Source: a virus
DNA: 15,449 nucleotides
UHGV virus genome: UHGV-1643955
Direction: 5' to 3' (one strand)
Each line of letters opens with the position of its first letter. Within the stretch, counting starts at the first letter, position 1. The notes under the pieces were generated by a model that worked only from the letters and a program-made list of their open reading frames with translations, was not told the origin of the DNA and searched no databases. The translations under genes and the position numbers were made by a program. Positions 10,492 through 15,449 of the stretch are shown piece after piece.

Positions 10492-11400
10492 ATGCCGATT
10501 ATCGACCTGAACCAGCTACCCGCACCGGATGTGGTCGAGGAGCTGGACTTTGAAACCATTCTTGCCGAACGCAAGGCGACACTGATTTCCCTTTACCCGG
10601 AAGACCAGCAGGAGGCGGTCGCCCGTACCCTGACGCTGGAATCCGAACCTCTCGTCAAACTGCTGGAGGAAAATGCTTATCGTGAGCTTATCTGGCGTCA
10701 GCGTGTGAATGAGGCCGCACGGGCGGTGATGCTGGCCTGTGCTGCCGGTAATGACCTTGATGTGATTGGTGCCAATTACAACACCACGCGCCTGATTATC
10801 ACCCCGGCAGATGATTCGACTATCCCGCCGACACCGGCAGTGATGGAATCTGACACTGATTATCGTCTGCGTATTCAGCAGGCGTTTGAAGGTTTAAGCG
10901 TCGCCGGGTCGGTGGGTGCCTATCAGTATCATGGTCGCAGTGCCGACGGGCGTGTCGCGGATATCTCTGTCACCAGCCCGTCTCCTGCCTGTGTCACCAT
11001 CTCTGTGCTGTCACGTGAAAATAACGGCGTCGCATCCGAAGACCTGCTGGCTGTGGTGCGTAACGCCCTTAATGGCGAGGACGTCAGGCCGGTGGCCGAC
11101 CGCGTGACCGTGCAGTCTGCCGCCATCGTTGAATACCAGATAAACGCCACGCTTTACCTTTACCCTGGTCCCGAAAGCGAACCCATCCGCGCTGCCGCTG
11201 TGAAAAAGCTGGAAGCGTATATCACGGCACAGCACCGGCTGGGGCGCGACATCCGTCTGTCTGCCATTTATGCCGCTTTGCATGTGGAAGGTGTGCAGCG
11301 TGTCGAACTGGCTGCACCACTGGCCGACATCGTGCTCAACAGTACGCAGGCGTCTTTCTGTACTGAATACCGCGTCGTGACCGGAGGCTCGGATGAGTGA
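10492..11400 (+). CDS. J: Baseplate assembly protein, P2 gpJ homolog
   Basis: 302-aa ORF, same length and position as P2 gpJ. Confidence 0.9.
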   Translation: MPIIDLNQLPAPDVVEELDFETILAERKATLISLYPEDQQEAVARTLTLESEPLVKLLEENAYRELIWRQRVNEAARAVMLACAAGNDLDVIGANYNTTRLIITPADDSTIPPTPAVMESDTDYRLRIQQAFEGLSVAGSVGAYQYHGRSADGRVADISVTSPSPACVTISVLSRENNGVASEDLLAVVRNALNGEDVRPVADRVTVQSAAIVEYQINATLYLYPGPESEPIRAAAVKKLEAYITAQHRLGRDIRLSAIYAALHVEGVQRVELAAPLADIVLNSTQASFCTEYRVVTGGSDE

Positions 11401-11923
11401 TTCGCGACTGCTGCCGACCGGCTCATCACCGCTTGAGGTCGCCGCCGCAAAAGCCTGTGCGGAAATTGAAAAAACGCCGGTCAGTATTCGTGAGCTGTGG
11501 AACCCGGATACCTGTCCGGCAAATTTGCTGCCGTGGCTGGCGTGGGCGTTTTCGGTCGACAGGTGGGATGAGAAGTGGCCGGAAGCGACAAAACGCGCCG
11601 TTATCCGCGATGCGTATTTCATCCACTGTCATAAAGGCACTATAGGTGCAATCCGGCGTGTGGTGGAGCCGCTCGGCTATCTCATCAACGTGACGGAGTG
11701 GTGGGAAAACAGTGACCCGCCCGGCACCTTCCGGCTTGATATTGGTGTACTGGAAAGTGGCATCACAGAGGCAATGTATCAGGAAATGGAACGGCTGATT
11801 GCTGATGCCAAACCTGCAAGCCGCCACCTTATTGGCCTGAACATTACCCGGGACATTCCCGGCTACCTGTTCGCCGGTGGTGTGGCTTACGACGGCGATG
11901 TAATTACGGTTTACCCCGGATAA
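11393..11923 (+). CDS. I: Baseplate protein, P2 gpI homolog
   Basis: 176-aa ORF, overlaps the J end by 8 nt, GGAGG upstream. Confidence 0.85.
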   Translation: MSDSRLLPTGSSPLEVAAAKACAEIEKTPVSIRELWNPDTCPANLLPWLAWAFSVDRWDEKWPEATKRAVIRDAYFIHCHKGTIGAIRRVVEPLGYLINVTEWWENSDPPGTFRLDIGVLESGITEAMYQEMERLIADAKPASRHLIGLNITRDIPGYLFAGGVAYDGDVITVYPG

Positions 11924-11933
11924 GTGAGGAATA

Positions 11934-14228
11934 ATGAGCACAAAATTCAGAACCGTTATCACCACTGCCGGTGCAGCAAAGCTGGCAGCGGCAACCGCAC
12001 CGGGAGGGCGGAAGGTCAACATTACCACGATGGCCGTCGGGGATGGCGGTGGTAAATTGCCTGTCCCGGATGCCGGACAGACCGGGCTTATCCACGAAGT
12101 CTGGCGACATGCGCTGAACAAAATCAGCCAGGACAAACGAAACAGTAATTATATTATCGCAGAGCTGGTTATTCCGCCGGAGGTGGGCGGTTTCTGGATG
12201 CGTGAGCTTGGCCTGTACGATGATGCGGGAACGTTAATTGCTGTGGCGAACATGGCCGAAAGTTATAAGCCAGCTCTTGCCGAAGGCTCAGGGCGTTCGC
12301 AGACCTGCCGCATGGTCATCATCGTCAGCAGTGTGGCCTCAGTGGAGCTGACCATTGACACCACAACGGTGATGGCGACGCAGGATTACGTTGATGACAA
12401 AATTGCAGAGCATGAACAGTCACGACGTCACCCGGACGCCTCGCTGACCGCAAAAGGTTTTACTCAGTTAAGCAGTGCGACCAACAGCACGTCTGAAACA
12501 CTGGCCGCAACGCCGAAAGCGGTAAAGGCCGCCTATGACCTTGCTAACGGGAAATATACTGCGCAGGATGCCACCACGGCGCGAAAAGGCCTTGTTCAGC
12601 TCAGTAGTGCGACCAACAGCACGTCTGAAACGCTCGCCGCAACGCCGAAAGCGGTAAAGGCCGCCTATGACCTTGCTAACGGGAAATACACTGCACAGGA
12701 CGCCACCACCGCGCGAAAAGGTCTTGTCCAGCTCAGTAGCGCCACCAACAGCGATTCTGAAACGCTTGCGGCAACACCAAAGGCGGTTAAGACAGCGTAT
12801 GACCTTGCTAACGGGAAATACACTGCACAGGATGCCACCACGGCGCGAAAAGGTCTTGTCCAGCTCAGTAGCGCCACCAACAGTGATTCTGAAACCCTCG
12901 CGGCAACGCCAAAAGCGGTGAAGTCTGCCTATGACAATGCTGAAAAACGTCTTCAGAAAGATCAGAACGGTGCGGATATTCCGGGAAAGGATACCTTCAC
13001 GAAAAATATCGGTGCCTGTCGTGCTTATAGCGGCGCTTTGAGCACTGAAGCCGGAAACTGGACAACCGCTCAGTTTATTGAATGGCTGGATTCCCGTGGT
13101 GCATTTAATCATCCGTACTGGATGTGCAAAGGCTCCTGGTCATATGCAAATAACAAAATCATTACGGATACCGGATGTGGTGATATCCACCTGGCTGGTT
13201 GTGTCGTCGAAGTCATGGGAACAAAATCTGCAATCACTATTCGAGTGACCACGCCGACAACATCAAGCGGTGGCGGTACAACCAGCGCGCAATTCACTTA
13301 CATTAATCATGGGGACGGCTACTCCCCCGGCTGGCGTCGTGACTGGAATCGTCAGGGCGACGCAATGACCGGAACGATTAATCAGGATGGCGGAAGCCAG
13401 AATGCCTATATGTCTACGGCCTTATGTTCAGGCACCAGAGGCGGCAAAAAATATCTCAGAAAGTTTCGTGGTGGAGAAGGAGACACTATCTGGCATGAAA
13501 CAGTGCAGGGCGGGGTAATTCGCTGGGCGACAGGAAACTATGACGATCAGGAAGAATTATCACTCAGCTCCGCTTATGGTCTCCGTTCTAGAGGTGGAAT
13601 TACATCACTCAGTACTAATGGTCTGCGCATTGCTTATGGCAATTATGGATTCTTTATCAGGAATGATGGCGGCAGCACATATTTAATGCTGACGGCCTCT
13701 GGCGATAAATTTGGGACATGGAACGGTTTAAGACCGCTGACTATCAATAACGCTAATGGCGGAGTGTCAATGGGGCATGGCCTGCGTGTTACTGGTGATA
13801 TTGCCTCAAGTACCAAAGTACGCGCCGGTAGCGGGAAAAAGTTCACGGTCAGCAGCAGTAATACATCCACGAAGGAAGCCGCATTCAATTTGTGGGGAAA
13901 CTCAAGTCGTCCGGTGGTGGCTGAATTAGGTGATGATGCAGGCTGGCATTTTTACAGTCAGAGAAATACAGATAACAGCATCACTTTTGCTGTTAACGGT
14001 CAGGTATCACCATCTAACTATAGTAATTTTGATTCCCGTTATGTACGCGATATCCGGCTTGGGACTCGAGTTGTCCAGACCATGCAGAAAGGGGTGATGT
14101 ATGAGAAAGCAGGGCACGTAATTACCGGGCTTGGTATTATCGGTGAAGTCGATGGTGATGACCCCGCAGTATTCAGACCAATACAAAAATACATCAATGG
14201 CACATGGTATAACGTCGCACAGGTGTAA
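11934..14228 (+). CDS. H: Tail fibre protein, P2 gpH homolog, with expanded internal repeats and a divergent C-terminal receptor-binding region
   Basis: 764-aa ORF with a conserved P2 H-type N-terminus (MSTKFRTVITTAGAAKLAAATAPGG...), GAGGA upstream. It is longer than the 669 aa I recall for P2 gpH, and about 3.7 tandem 44-aa 'tail fibre repeat' units (...QLSSATNSTSETLAATPKAVKAAYDLANGKYTAQDATTARKG...) account for much of the difference. Confidence 0.9.
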   Translation: MSTKFRTVITTAGAAKLAAATAPGGRKVNITTMAVGDGGGKLPVPDAGQTGLIHEVWRHALNKISQDKRNSNYIIAELVIPPEVGGFWMRELGLYDDAGTLIAVANMAESYKPALAEGSGRSQTCRMVIIVSSVASVELTIDTTTVMATQDYVDDKIAEHEQSRRHPDASLTAKGFTQLSSATNSTSETLAATPKAVKAAYDLANGKYTAQDATTARKGLVQLSSATNSTSETLAATPKAVKAAYDLANGKYTAQDATTARKGLVQLSSATNSDSETLAATPKAVKTAYDLANGKYTAQDATTARKGLVQLSSATNSDSETLAATPKAVKSAYDNAEKRLQKDQNGADIPGKDTFTKNIGACRAYSGALSTEAGNWTTAQFIEWLDSRGAFNHPYWMCKGSWSYANNKIITDTGCGDIHLAGCVVEVMGTKSAITIRVTTPTTSSGGGTTSAQFTYINHGDGYSPGWRRDWNRQGDAMTGTINQDGGSQNAYMSTALCSGTRGGKKYLRKFRGGEGDTIWHETVQGGVIRWATGNYDDQEELSLSSAYGLRSRGGITSLSTNGLRIAYGNYGFFIRNDGGSTYLMLTASGDKFGTWNGLRPLTINNANGGVSMGHGLRVTGDIASSTKVRAGSGKKFTVSSSNTSTKEAAFNLWGNSSRPVVAELGDDAGWHFYSQRNTDNSITFAVNGQVSPSNYSNFDSRYVRDIRLGTRVVQTMQKGVMYEKAGHVITGLGIIGEVDGDDPAVFRPIQKYINGTWYNVAQV
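12452..12936 (+). repeat. Tandem 132-bp (44-codon) direct repeats, about 3.7 copies, inside H
   Basis: The motif aaaagg[tc]...cagct[ct]agtag[tc]gc...acggcgcga recurs at 12452, 12584, 12716 and 12848, an exact 132-bp period; the fourth copy diverges after about 12936. Copies differ at only a few positions. Confidence 0.85.
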
Positions 14229-14231
14229 TTT

Positions 14232-14756
14232 ATGCAACATTTAAAAAATATTACTGCGGGTAATCCAAAAACTGTTGCCCAATATCAACTGACAAAAAAT
14301 TTTGATGTTATCTGGTTATGGTCCGAAGAGGGAAAAAACTGGTATGAGGAAGTAAGTAATTTTCAGGAGGACACGATAAAGATTGTTTACGACGAGAATA
14401 ATATAATTGTCGGCATCACCCGAGATGCTTCAACGCTTAACCCTGAAGGTTTTAGCGTTGTTGAGGTTCCTGATATTACTGCCAACCGACGTGCTGATGA
14501 CTCAGGTAAATGGATGTTTAAGGATGGTGCCGTGATTAAGCGGATTTATACGGCAGACGAACAGCAACAACAGGCAGAATCACAAAAGGCCGCGTTACTT
14601 TCCGAAGCGGAAAGCGTTATTCAGCCACTGGAGCGCGCTGTCAGGCTGAACATGGCAACAGATGAGGAGCGTAGCCGACTGGAAGCATGGGAACGCTACA
14701 GTGTTCTGGTCAGCCGTGTGGATCCTGCAAATCCTGAATGGCCGGAAATGCCGTAA
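14232..14756 (+). CDS. G: Tail fibre assembly chaperone, P2 gpG homolog
   Basis: 174-aa ORF immediately after H (4-nt gap). The C-terminus (...[25 protein letters not shown]) resembles the conserved Tfa C-terminal region. The N-terminal half is AT-rich: I counted 19 G+C in the 60 nt of 14281-14340. Confidence 0.85.
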
Positions 14757-14781
14757 TAAGTGATATGATCTCTTGTGTTAG

Positions 14782-14868
14782 TTAACATAGCTATAGTACA
14801 GAGTAAGGCCTAATCTGACAGTCCGCTCTGTGCTAGGAGCGGACATTATCAACATCATGCTATGTTAA
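14782..14868. repeat. Nested inverted repeats at the boundary between G and the AT-rich cargo region
   Basis: Outer 10-bp perfect inverted repeat ttaacatagc (14782-14791) and gctatgttaa (14859-14868). Inside it, a perfect 8-bp stem gtccgctc (14821-14828) and gagcggac (14837-14844) with an 8-nt loop. No T-run follows on either strand, so it is not a canonical intrinsic terminator. Confidence 0.5.
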
Positions 14869-15148
14869 TGTATAAAGTGAAGATAAATTGATATAATAAG
14901 GCCACCATGAATATTTCAGAACCTTGTCAAAAGGTTTGCACATACTCTAGTCTTGCAATGTGTAGTTGATAGTTCCACTGAGGAGGTTCTTCGACATTCT
15001 TTATAAAAATGTACATTTTCATCAATAATAAGAGGTAAAAGGGCTTTAATAGTTTTTTGTGGATGTTATTTCTACTCATAAATTTTGAGATAAGTATTGA
15101 GTTGAGATAAAGTTAAACTCGTTAAATTCACCTTTAAAAGGATAAAGC

Positions 15149-15402
15149 ATGGACTGGAAAGATCTTGCATCAACTGCTGTGTATACAGGTATGACTGATG
15201 AAAATGAAAGCATATGGGAACGTGTTGATGGGGTTGACGTTGCCTTCATAGGTGCCTTTCTTACTGCGCACTTGAGCCTTGAAAAGTATATTACTGATTA
15301 TCTTGGATTAAGATATCCTTCGTTAGCTTGGGGTGATGCAAAACTCACATTTTCACAAAAAATAGCTTTAATACAACATGAGCCTGCAAAACCCCCTTAT
15401 GA
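15149..15402 (+). CDS. Partial ORF of unknown function (5' end only), first cargo gene of the G-FI hotspot; truncated by the contig end and adapter
   Basis: ATG at 15149 preceded by AAGGA (about 15138-15142). Open frame MDWKDLASTAVYTGMTDENESIWERVDGVDVAFIGAFLTAHLSLEKYITDYLGLRYPSLAWGDAKLTFSQKIALIQHEPAKPPYD runs straight into the adapter at 15403. AT-rich, unlike the phage backbone. I do not recognise the protein. Confidence 0.45.
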
Positions 15403-15449
15403 CTGTCTCTTATACACATCTGACGCTGCCGACGATATGCAGTGTGTAG
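15403..15449 (+). other. Illumina Nextera adapter read-through (technical artefact, not biological sequence)
   Basis: CTGTCTCTTATACACATCT (reverse complement of the Tn5 mosaic end) + GACGCTGCCGACGA + TATGCAGT (reverse complement of ACTGCATA, which I recall as i5 index N506/S506) + GTGTAG (start of the reverse-complemented P5 sequence GTGTAGATCTCGGTGG...). Confidence 0.9.

What the first reader, a model, noticed from the sequence alone, without database searches (positions are those of the whole stretch)
12452..12936. Near-identical 132-bp tandem repeats (about 3.7 copies) in the tail-fibre gene H
The repeats are in frame (44 aa each) and differ at only a few nucleotides, which suggests recent expansion or ongoing copy-number change by unequal recombination. 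They make H about 95 aa longer than the P2 protein as I recall it. Copy number may modulate fibre length, and the array is a likely site of assembly collapse with short reads. The overlapping antisense ORFs in the ORF track are by-products of this repeat.
Basis: seen in the sequence. Interest (0 to 1): 0.5.

Follow-up and report, generated by a model that had tools for sequence, protein, structure and literature searches.

The report
Known tail-fibre repeat array in P2 gene H
The 132-bp tandem array is real, but it is four copies of the long-known "phage tail fibre repeat" in the tail-fibre gene of a P2-like E. coli prophage, and it is an old, diverged array found in hundreds of genomes, so it is ordinary.

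Summary
The array exists: period 132 nt, in frame, three full 44-aa units plus a fourth that keeps the first 31 codons (12453-12941), inside gene H (11934-14228, 764 aa) of a P2-like prophage. Each unit is a copy of Pfam PF03406 (Phage_fiber_2; four hits, E 4e-78).

The units are not near-identical at the DNA level. Full units differ at 13-24 of 132 nt (82-90% identity), mostly at synonymous sites (dS 0.34-1.0, dN/dS 0.06-0.15). Units cluster by position across phages rather than by genome, so the array predates the split of these phages and is not a recent expansion here.

Copy number does vary among relatives. P2 has 2, P37 and fiAA91-ss have 3, this window and several published phages have 4, and other E. 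coli prophages have 5 or 6. Some lineages carry 100%-identical internal units, which are recent amplifications.

The four-copy gene recurs at the same length in a complete E. coli chromosome, so mis-assembly here is unlikely. A related GenBank phage record is broken inside its array.

The antisense ORFs are periodic by-products. The likely role, inferred only, is a modular shaft segment between the baseplate-attachment and receptor-binding parts. Low interest; already known.

The parts
11934..14228 (+). Gene H, tail fibre protein, 764 aa
   Evidence: ORF. Pfam PF12571, four copies of PF03406 and PF21446. 98% nt identity over its full length to Yersinia phage vB_YpM_46 H. Annotated 'tail fiber protein', same length, in E. 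coli ETEC1721.
11934..12452 (+). N-terminal baseplate-attachment part of H (aa 1-173)
   Evidence: PF12571 Phage_tail_fib covers aa 1-151, E 1.7e-58. aa 1-242 are 96% identical to P2 H.
12453..12584 (+). Repeat unit 1 (aa 174-217), KGFTQLSSATNSTSETLAATPKAVKAAYDLANGKYTAQDATTAR
   Evidence: Orthologous to unit 1 of P2, fiAA91-ss and YpM_115 (98.8% over the 81-nt core).
12585..12716 (+). Repeat unit 2 (aa 218-261). Carries a probable conversion tract from unit 1 at offsets 11-80
   Evidence: 7 of its 8 departures from the orthologous consensus equal unit 1 of the window. 53-nt exact repeat at 12504/12636.
12717..12848 (+). Repeat unit 3 (aa 262-305)
   Evidence: 98.8% identical to YpM_115 unit 3. 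This is the unit absent from P37, where there is an exact 132-nt gap.
12849..12941 (+). Repeat unit 4, partial (first 31 codons, aa 306-336). The linker half is replaced by the start of the distal module
   Evidence: The unit 3/unit 4 alignment stays matched to offset about 93.
12942..14228 (+). Distal mosaic part of H. aa 334-487 resemble Mu S', aa 542-604 match the Gp34_trimer domain, and the last 136 aa resemble P2 H and Mu S
   Evidence: PDB sequence hits 8ju3 (E 7e-93), 5yvq and 4uxe. Pfam PF21446. 79% identity to the P2 H C-terminus.
14232..14756 (+). Gene G, tail fibre assembly protein
   Evidence: PF02413 Caudo_TAP, E 3e-36. Annotation in relatives.
11393..11923 (+). Gene I, baseplate/tail protein immediately upstream of H
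   Evidence: PF09684 Tail_P2_I, E 6e-56.
12468..13112 (-). Antisense ORF of 214 aa; a by-product, not a gene
   Evidence: Its translation repeats with 44-aa period (FPVSKVIGGLYRFRRCG...). This frame has no stop between 12470 and 13142.
12665..12880 (-). Antisense ORF of 71 aa; a by-product
   Evidence: Periodic translation.
12667..12921 (+). Out-of-frame sense ORF of 84 aa; a by-product
   Evidence: Periodic translation.

Best explanation
The array is four tandem copies of the 'phage tail fibre repeat' (Pfam PF03406, Phage_fiber_2) in gene H of a P2-like (Peduovirus) prophage of E. coli. It sits between the conserved N-terminal baseplate-attachment domain and a mosaic distal receptor-binding part. 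Shown: the units are strongly conserved as protein but diverged as DNA. They are positional orthologues of the units in other P2-like phages, so this four-unit array is old. Shown: whole units are gained and lost between lineages (2-6 copies), and short tracts are exchanged between neighbouring units. Both fit unequal homologous recombination and gene conversion. Inferred: each 44-aa unit adds one module to the proximal shaft of the trimeric fibre, so copy number sets the reach of the fibre without changing attachment or receptor specificity. Inferred: the conserved repeat DNA also provides homology at which different distal modules are joined.
For: PF03406 hits four times (E 4.4e-78, 257 bits against a cut-off of 22). 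The flanking domains PF12571 and PF21446 and the neighbours I, J and G are as in P2. H is 98% identical over its full length to the H gene of Yersinia phage vB_YpM_46. The whole window is 98% colinear with a prophage in a complete E. coli chromosome whose H is also 2295 nt. Between units, dS is 0.34-1.0 and dN/dS 0.06-0.15, whereas the N-terminal domain differs from P2-type phages by dS 0.02-0.08. Units cluster by position across 15 phages. Copy numbers are 2 (P2, Wphi, HQ103, P2_AC1, pro147), 3 (P37, fiAA91-ss, STYP1, PsP3), 4 (window, YpM_46, YpM_115, 12474III, P2DC1, P2_2H4), and 5-6 in E. coli prophage proteins. P37 lacks exactly 132 nt, corresponding to unit 3, and fiAA91-ss lacks unit 2. 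The same distal module occurs with 3, 4, 5 and 6 units (P0009, window, P0102, P0005-8). Other lineages have internal units that are 100% identical in DNA (L017, L019). Differences from the nearest relatives concentrate in the array: 21 of 37 against ETEC1721 and 33 of 47 against YpM_46, in 21% of the gene. 7 of 8 unit-2 deviations match unit 1. Homology to P2 H stops right after TPKAVK of unit 2. Nucleotide matches to other phages end at query positions 726, 854-857 and 1049, inside or just after the array.
Against: No experimental or confident predicted structure of the repeat was obtained. The AlphaFold2 monomer model has pLDDT 50 and cannot be trusted. [quoted passage not shown] The shaft-module and length role therefore rests on position in the protein and on analogy. 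The conversion-tract inference rests on 8 sites and could instead reflect recombination with an unsampled allele. Clustering of mosaic breakpoints at the array was read from BLAST end points, not tested statistically.
Confidence: 0.8

Rival explanations
1. Recent in situ expansion: the array arose by recent tandem duplication in this prophage and behaves like a hypervariable, contingency-type locus.
For: Copy number varies from 2 to 6 among relatives. Some lineages really do have identical internal units (L017 u2=u3=u4; L019 u2=u3). A likely u1-to-u2 conversion tract shows that exchange continues.
Against: The window's units are only 82-90% identical, with dS 0.34-1.0. Each is 97.5-98.8% identical to the same-position unit in other phages, except u2 at about 92%. 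The same four-unit order is present in published phages, and 443 complete E. coli genomes hold at least 80% of the 901-nt array region.
Confidence: 0.07
2. Assembly artefact: the true copy number differs and short-read assembly collapsed or expanded the array.
For: The window comes from a short-read Nextera library, since adapter sequence lies at 15403-15435. A related record (ON146439, VB-YPM-4) has 53-nt and 38-nt out-of-frame gaps in units 1-2 that split H in two. Most of the best-matching H proteins in public assemblies are labelled 'partial', and a few end inside the array.
Against: The reading frame is intact. The units are diverged enough (longest exact repeat 53 nt) to be resolved by ordinary reads. 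H in the complete ETEC1721 chromosome has the same 2295 nt and the same unit order, and the 901-nt array region matches E. coli UTAK-3 at 99.8% in one colinear piece.
Confidence: 0.04
3. The selected role lies in the DNA: the conserved repeats persist mainly as homology 'adaptors' that let phages swap distal receptor-binding modules, and the peptide is a tolerated spacer.
For: Homology with P2, STYP1/PsP3 and P2_2H4 ends at equivalent points in or just after a unit. The repeat DNA is shared with lambdoid stf genes and occurs in 2368 of 5426 complete E. coli genomes. Horizontal exchange of tail-fibre segments between unrelated phages is the classical reading of P2 H (Haggard-Ljungquist 1992 and Sandmeier 1994, as cited in PMC8986868).
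Against: The divergence pattern is the opposite of DNA-level selection. Synonymous sites drift freely (dS up to 1.0) while the amino-acid sequence is held (dN/dS about 0.1). No invertase crossover-like core is present.
Confidence: 0.09

Closest known systems
Pfam PF03406 Phage_fiber_2 ('phage tail fibre repeat', Pf2) as in lambda Stf/StfR, Mu S, P2 H and EHEC prophage collagen-like proteins
   Same: The sequence motif is the same (KG.VQLSSATNS.SETLAATPKAVK...), with four hits far above the gathering score. It lies between an N-terminal attachment domain and the distal fibre. One copy aligns to Mu S residues 99-173.
   Different: Nothing essential differs. Here the motif is in a regular 44-aa head-to-tail array with a conserved 13-aa linker, whereas Mu S matched a single copy in the alignment.
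Bacteriophage P2 gpH (NC_001895, 669 aa)
   Same: aa 1-242 are 96% identical, including units 1 and 2. The last 136 aa are 79% identical. The gene order J-I-H-G is the same.
   Different: P2 has 2 units and this H has 4. The middle sections are unrelated (window aa 243-628 against P2 aa 243-533). Here the middle is Mu S'-like and carries a T4 gp34-type trimerisation domain.
H of Yersinia phage vB_YpM_46 (NC_055845) and of the P2-like prophage in E. coli ETEC1721 (NZ_CP122868)
   Same: Same length (2295 nt), same four units and same distal module; 98.0% and 98.4% nt identity.
   Different: There are 33 and 21 substitutions inside the array, mostly synonymous-type third-position changes. Unit 2 of the window is more like unit 1.
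Adenovirus fibre shaft repeats (from general knowledge, not tested here)
   Same: It works alike in principle: a trimeric fibre whose shaft is built of a variable number of short sequence repeats, so that repeat number sets fibre length.
   Different: The sequence and the virus are unrelated and the repeat is 15 aa. This is an analogy only, and no length effect has been shown for PF03406.

Membership tests
PF03406 Phage_fiber_2 (phage tail fibre repeat) | Match to the Pfam profile above the curated gathering score | tested here: met
   257.1 bits against a cut-off of 22, E 4.4e-78, four stretches; the best covers aa 170-210 on profile positions 1-41 of 42.
PF03406 Phage_fiber_2 (phage tail fibre repeat) | Occurs in a phage tail-fibre protein, usually in more than one copy | tested here: met
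   The host protein also carries PF12571 and PF21446 and is followed by a Caudo_TAP assembly gene. Relatives are annotated as tail fibre protein.
P2 gpH-type tail fibre (Peduovirus H) | N-terminal tail-collar fibre domain homologous to P2 H | tested here: met
   PF12571, E 1.7e-58. 96% aa identity to P2 H over aa 1-242.
P2 gpH-type tail fibre (Peduovirus H) | Gene order baseplate J - I - H - assembly protein G within a P2-type late operon | tested here: met
   Pfam for J, I and G. The whole window is colinear with an annotated P2-like prophage.
P2 gpH-type tail fibre (Peduovirus H) | Trimeric virion fibre that binds the host surface | not testable with these tools
   No multimer prediction or experiment was available. 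The monomer model is unreliable (pLDDT 50).
Recently expanded or hypervariable tandem repeat (VNTR/contingency type) | Units near-identical at the DNA level | tested here: not met
   Identity is 82-90% between full units, dS is 0.34-1.0 and the longest exact repeat is 53 nt. By contrast L017 and L019 have 100%-identical internal units.
Recently expanded or hypervariable tandem repeat (VNTR/contingency type) | Copy number differs among close relatives | tested here: met
   2 to 6 units are seen among P2-like H genes, and the same distal module occurs with 3-6 units.
Recently expanded or hypervariable tandem repeat (VNTR/contingency type) | Length heterogeneity within one population | not testable with these tools
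   This needs the reads, or PCR on the source culture.
Invertase-switched tail fibre (Mu Gin / P1 Cin type) | Crossover site with an AAACCNNGGTTT-type core at the constant/variable junction (core recalled from memory) | tested here: not met
   No match in the window with up to 1 mismatch. No inverted alternative fibre segment follows G.

The most novel reading that the evidence does not exclude
The number of PF03406 units is an adaptive length dial. The same receptor-binding module is combined with 2-6 units, and unit gain or loss by unequal recombination happens often enough to tune fibre reach to the depth of the host's O-antigen or capsule layer. This would be a host-range variable separate from receptor specificity. 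The evidence shows the copy-number variation and both recent and old arrays, but nothing on phenotype.
Probability: 0.12. Interest if true: 0.45.

Novelty: already known. Interest (0 to 1): 0.12.

Why it matters
There is little new biology here. The repeat is a curated Pfam family. The four-unit H gene is present in published phages, and 443 complete E. coli genomes hold at least 80% of the array region.

The practical value is threefold. First, annotators should expect periodic spurious ORFs over this array. Second, H genes of P2-like phages differ by whole 132-nt units, and at least one public record is broken there, so the copy number in a short-read assembly deserves a check before fibre engineering or host-range inference. 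Third, the family offers natural 2-6-unit series on one receptor-binding module. Such a series would be a clean system for testing whether fibre length matters for adsorption.

Tried and rejected
1. Structure: an AlphaFold2 monomer prediction of aa 155-351 with a 15-sequence alignment gave mean pLDDT 50.3 and pTM 0.31, all helix. That is too poor to interpret, so no fold search was run. The fibre is a trimer and the tool folds single chains.

2. Solved structures by sequence: Mu S, Mu S' and T4 gp34 match the distal part and one repeat copy. The Mu cryo-EM paper modelled only the N-terminus of gp49, and I could not establish whether the repeat is resolved.

3. Invertase crossover site at the end of the array, a lead recalled from work on Mu, P1 and p15B: no AAACCNNGGTTT-like core was found. 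Rejected.

4. The original P2 H paper (PMC206541) and the P2 review (PMC4836473) are not held. Their content is cited only through other papers' reference lists and from memory.

5. Two literature searches failed on term-format rules.

6. The inverted repeat at 12417-12452 / 13310-13345 (72% complementary) was judged a chance match and not pursued.

7. The hypothetical protein downstream of G has no significant Pfam hit (best DUF6548, E 0.026, below cut-off) and no PADLOC hit.

Full report
**Observation**

Tandem Repeats Finder finds one strong array in the window: 12480-12935, period 132, 3.5 copies, 89% matches, no indels, score 688. An independent repeat search gives three copies of a 226-nt block spaced by 132 nt from 12452.

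The array lies inside the 764-codon ORF 11934-14228. In that frame the units begin at 12453, 12585, 12717 and 12849, which are aa 174, 218, 262 and 306. Three units are complete at 44 aa. The fourth matches for its first 31 codons, to about 12941, and then runs into unrelated sequence. The coordinates, period, copy number of about 3.7 and the in-frame claim are therefore all correct.

The phrase "near-identical, differing at only a few nucleotides" is not correct. The full units differ at 13, 18 and 24 of 132 positions (90.2, 86.4 and 81.8% identity). Most differing codons are synonymous, 9-14 against 2-4 non-synonymous. The longest exact repeat in the region is 53 nt. Only the peptides are near-identical.

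**What it is**

Pfam places four copies of PF03406 (Phage_fiber_2, "phage tail fibre repeat") on these units, with E 4.4e-78 and 257 bits against a cut-off of 22. PF12571 covers aa 1-151 (tail-collar fibre N-terminal domain) and PF21446 covers aa 542-604 (the T4 gp34-type trimerisation domain). The neighbouring ORFs are Baseplate_J, Tail_P2_I and a Caudo_TAP assembly protein, which is the P2 order J-I-H-G.

The gene is 98.0% identical over its whole length to H of Yersinia phage vB_YpM_46 and matches many Peduovirus genomes. The whole window is 98% colinear with a P2-like prophage in the complete chromosome of E. coli ETEC1721, whose H gene has the same 2295 nt.

Compared with P2 H (669 aa), aa 1-242 are 96% identical. 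Homology stops directly after TPKAVK of unit 2 and resumes for the last 136 aa at 79%. It is made of two extra units (88 aa) plus a net difference between non-homologous middle sections.

The distal part is a mosaic. aa 334-487 resemble Mu S' (PDB 8ju3), aa 551-763 resemble Mu S (5yvq), and aa 550-624 resemble T4 gp34 (4uxe).

**Age of the array**

I extracted the units from 15 H genes and compared their 81-nt cores. They cluster by position, not by genome. All first units group together, and so do the second, third and last units of the four-unit genes. Window unit 1 is 98.8% identical to unit 1 of P2, unit 3 is 98.8% identical to unit 3 of YpM_115, and unit 4 is 97.5% identical to unit 4 of YpM_115 and P2DC1. 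Units within the window share only 73-89%.

Nei-Gojobori estimates give dS 0.34-1.0 and dN/dS 0.06-0.15 between units. The N-terminal domain of H differs from P2, Wphi, fiAA91-ss, P2DC1 and the other P2-type phages by dS 0.02-0.08. P37 and PsP3 have far more diverged N-terminal domains (dS 1.4-1.6).

The duplications that made this array are therefore much older than the split of these P2-type phages, and the peptide is under strong purifying selection. "Recent expansion" is not supported for this window.

**Copy-number change in the family**

The number of units among characterised phages is as follows:

| Units | Phages |
|---|---|
| 2 | P2, Wphi, HQ103, P2_AC1, pro147 |
| 3 | P37, fiAA91-ss, STYP1, PsP3 |
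| 4 | this window, YpM_46, YpM_115, 12474III, P2DC1, P2_2H4 |

- **Three-unit genes:** they are not all the same. P37 lacks exactly 132 nt corresponding to unit 3, while fiAA91-ss lacks unit 2.
- **Wider sample:** a search of the large protein collection returned 6832 relatives. Among the best 120, arrays of 3, 4, 5 and 6 units occur, roughly 41, 51, 22 and 4.
- **Independence from the distal module:** the same distal module as in the window is found with 3 (P0009), 4, 5 (P0102) and 6 (P0005-P0008) units.
- **Recent amplification elsewhere:** two other lineages have internal units that are identical in DNA. In L017, a 5.15-Mb E. coli contig, u2 = u3 = u4. In L019, u2 = u3 and u4 is 99.2% identical. 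Recent amplification does occur in this family, but not in this window.

**Continuing exchange within the window's array**

Differences from the nearest relatives concentrate in the array, which makes up 21% of the gene. They number 21 of 37 against ETEC1721 and 33 of 47 against YpM_46.

In unit 2, seven of the eight departures from the consensus of orthologous units equal the base at the same offset in the window's own unit 1. This coincides with the 53-nt exact repeat at 12504/12636. A short gene-conversion tract from unit 1 to unit 2 is the simplest reading. It rests on few sites, and recombination with an unsampled allele would look the same.

**Assembly**

The last 47 nt of the window are Illumina Nextera adapter. 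Positions 15403-15435 match the reverse complement of the Read-1 transposase adapter exactly, followed by an index-length 8-mer and the start of P5.

Several results argue against collapse here:
- The reading frame is intact.
- The units are diverged enough to be resolved by ordinary reads.
- A complete chromosome carries the same-length gene.
- The 901-nt array region matches E. coli UTAK-3 at 99.8% in one piece, and 443 complete genomes hold at least 80% of it.

The caution is justified for the family. GenBank ON146439 (Yersinia phage VB-YPM-4) is otherwise almost identical to YpM_46, but it has 53-nt and 38-nt gaps inside units 1 and 2 that split H into two annotated CDS. For a plaque-forming phage this is most likely a consensus error.

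**Antisense ORFs**

The three ORFs overlapping the array are 12468-13112 (-), 12665-12880 (-) and 12667-12921 (+). All translate into 44-aa periodic sequences, and they exist because the unit has no stop in those frames.

**Mechanism**

Shown:
- The units are PF03406 repeats.
- They sit between the attachment domain and the distal receptor-binding mosaic.
- The peptide is conserved while synonymous sites drift.
- Whole units come and go.

Inferred:
- Each unit contributes one module to the proximal shaft of the trimeric fibre, so unit number sets reach without touching attachment or specificity.
- The shared repeat DNA is a convenient homology patch for joining different distal modules. Nucleotide matches to other phages end at H positions 726, 854-857 and 1049, inside or just after the array.

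I could not support the structural part. A monomer AlphaFold2 model was unreliable (pLDDT 50). [quoted passage not shown] The Mu virion structure modelled only the N-terminus of its fibre (PMC11915804). An invertase-type crossover site was looked for and not found.

**Comparison and verdict**

This is a member of a known repeat family in a known gene. The repeat has been recognised in lambda stf (PMC3368898) and, from memory, in the 1992 P2 H paper, which I could not read. The four-unit H gene is already in public phage and bacterial genomes.

Interest is low. The only open point with some appeal is whether unit number tunes fibre length and adsorption, which the natural 2-6-unit series would make easy to test.

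Noticed in passing
window 15403-15449: An exact 33-nt match to the reverse complement of the Illumina Nextera Read-1 transposase adapter (CTGTCTCTTATACACATCTGACGCTGCCGACGA), followed by an 8-nt index-like TATGCAGT and GTGTAG, the start of the P5 reverse complement. The 3' end of the window is untrimmed adapter, so the contig comes from a short-read library. The ORF starting at 15149 runs into it.
   Followed up: partly
window 14757-15402: A low-GC stretch (42-45% against about 57% elsewhere) lies after gene G, with a + strand ORF from ATG 15149. This is the variable cargo position of P2-like phages between G and the sheath gene. In E. coli ETEC1721 the full ORF is a 175-aa hypothetical protein with no significant Pfam hit and no PADLOC hit.
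   Followed up: partly
L003 (GenBank ON146439, Yersinia phage VB-YPM-4), locus 820-1100: H is annotated as two CDS because of 53-nt and 38-nt gaps inside repeat units 1 and 2, relative to the near-identical YpM_46. This is probably an assembly or consensus error in the public record.
   Followed up: yes
L016 1302-3444 (E. coli ETEC1721 prophage, just beyond the left end of the window): The closest complete-genome relative of this prophage carries cytolethal distending toxin genes cdtABC (type V) next to the portal gene. The window's alignment to it starts only at base 39, so whether the source prophage carries cdt cannot be seen.
   Followed up: no
L017 3356-4815 versus L018 3326-4420: Two contigs encode the identical five-unit H protein (P0097) but have the downstream tail-fibre assembly gene in opposite orientations, flanked by Collar-domain ORFs. 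This looks like an invertible fibre-tip segment of the Mu/P1 type in that P2-like lineage.
   Followed up: no
window 12933-14228 (H aa 334-764): The distal half of H is a mosaic. aa 334-487 closely match the Mu G(-) fibre S' (PDB 8ju3). aa 551-763 match Mu S (5yvq) and, at their start, T4 gp34 (4uxe; aa 550-624). The last 136 aa match P2 H at 79%.
   Followed up: partly
window 12453-12941 versus L016 and L001: Substitutions relative to the nearest relatives are several-fold denser in the array than in the rest of H: 4.3% in the array against 0.2% in the N-terminal part and 1.2% in the distal part, versus ETEC1721.
   Followed up: yes
window 12417-12452 and 13310-13345: A 36-nt inverted repeat, 72% complementary, with arms 857 nt apart and bracketing the array. 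It was judged a chance match.
   Followed up: no
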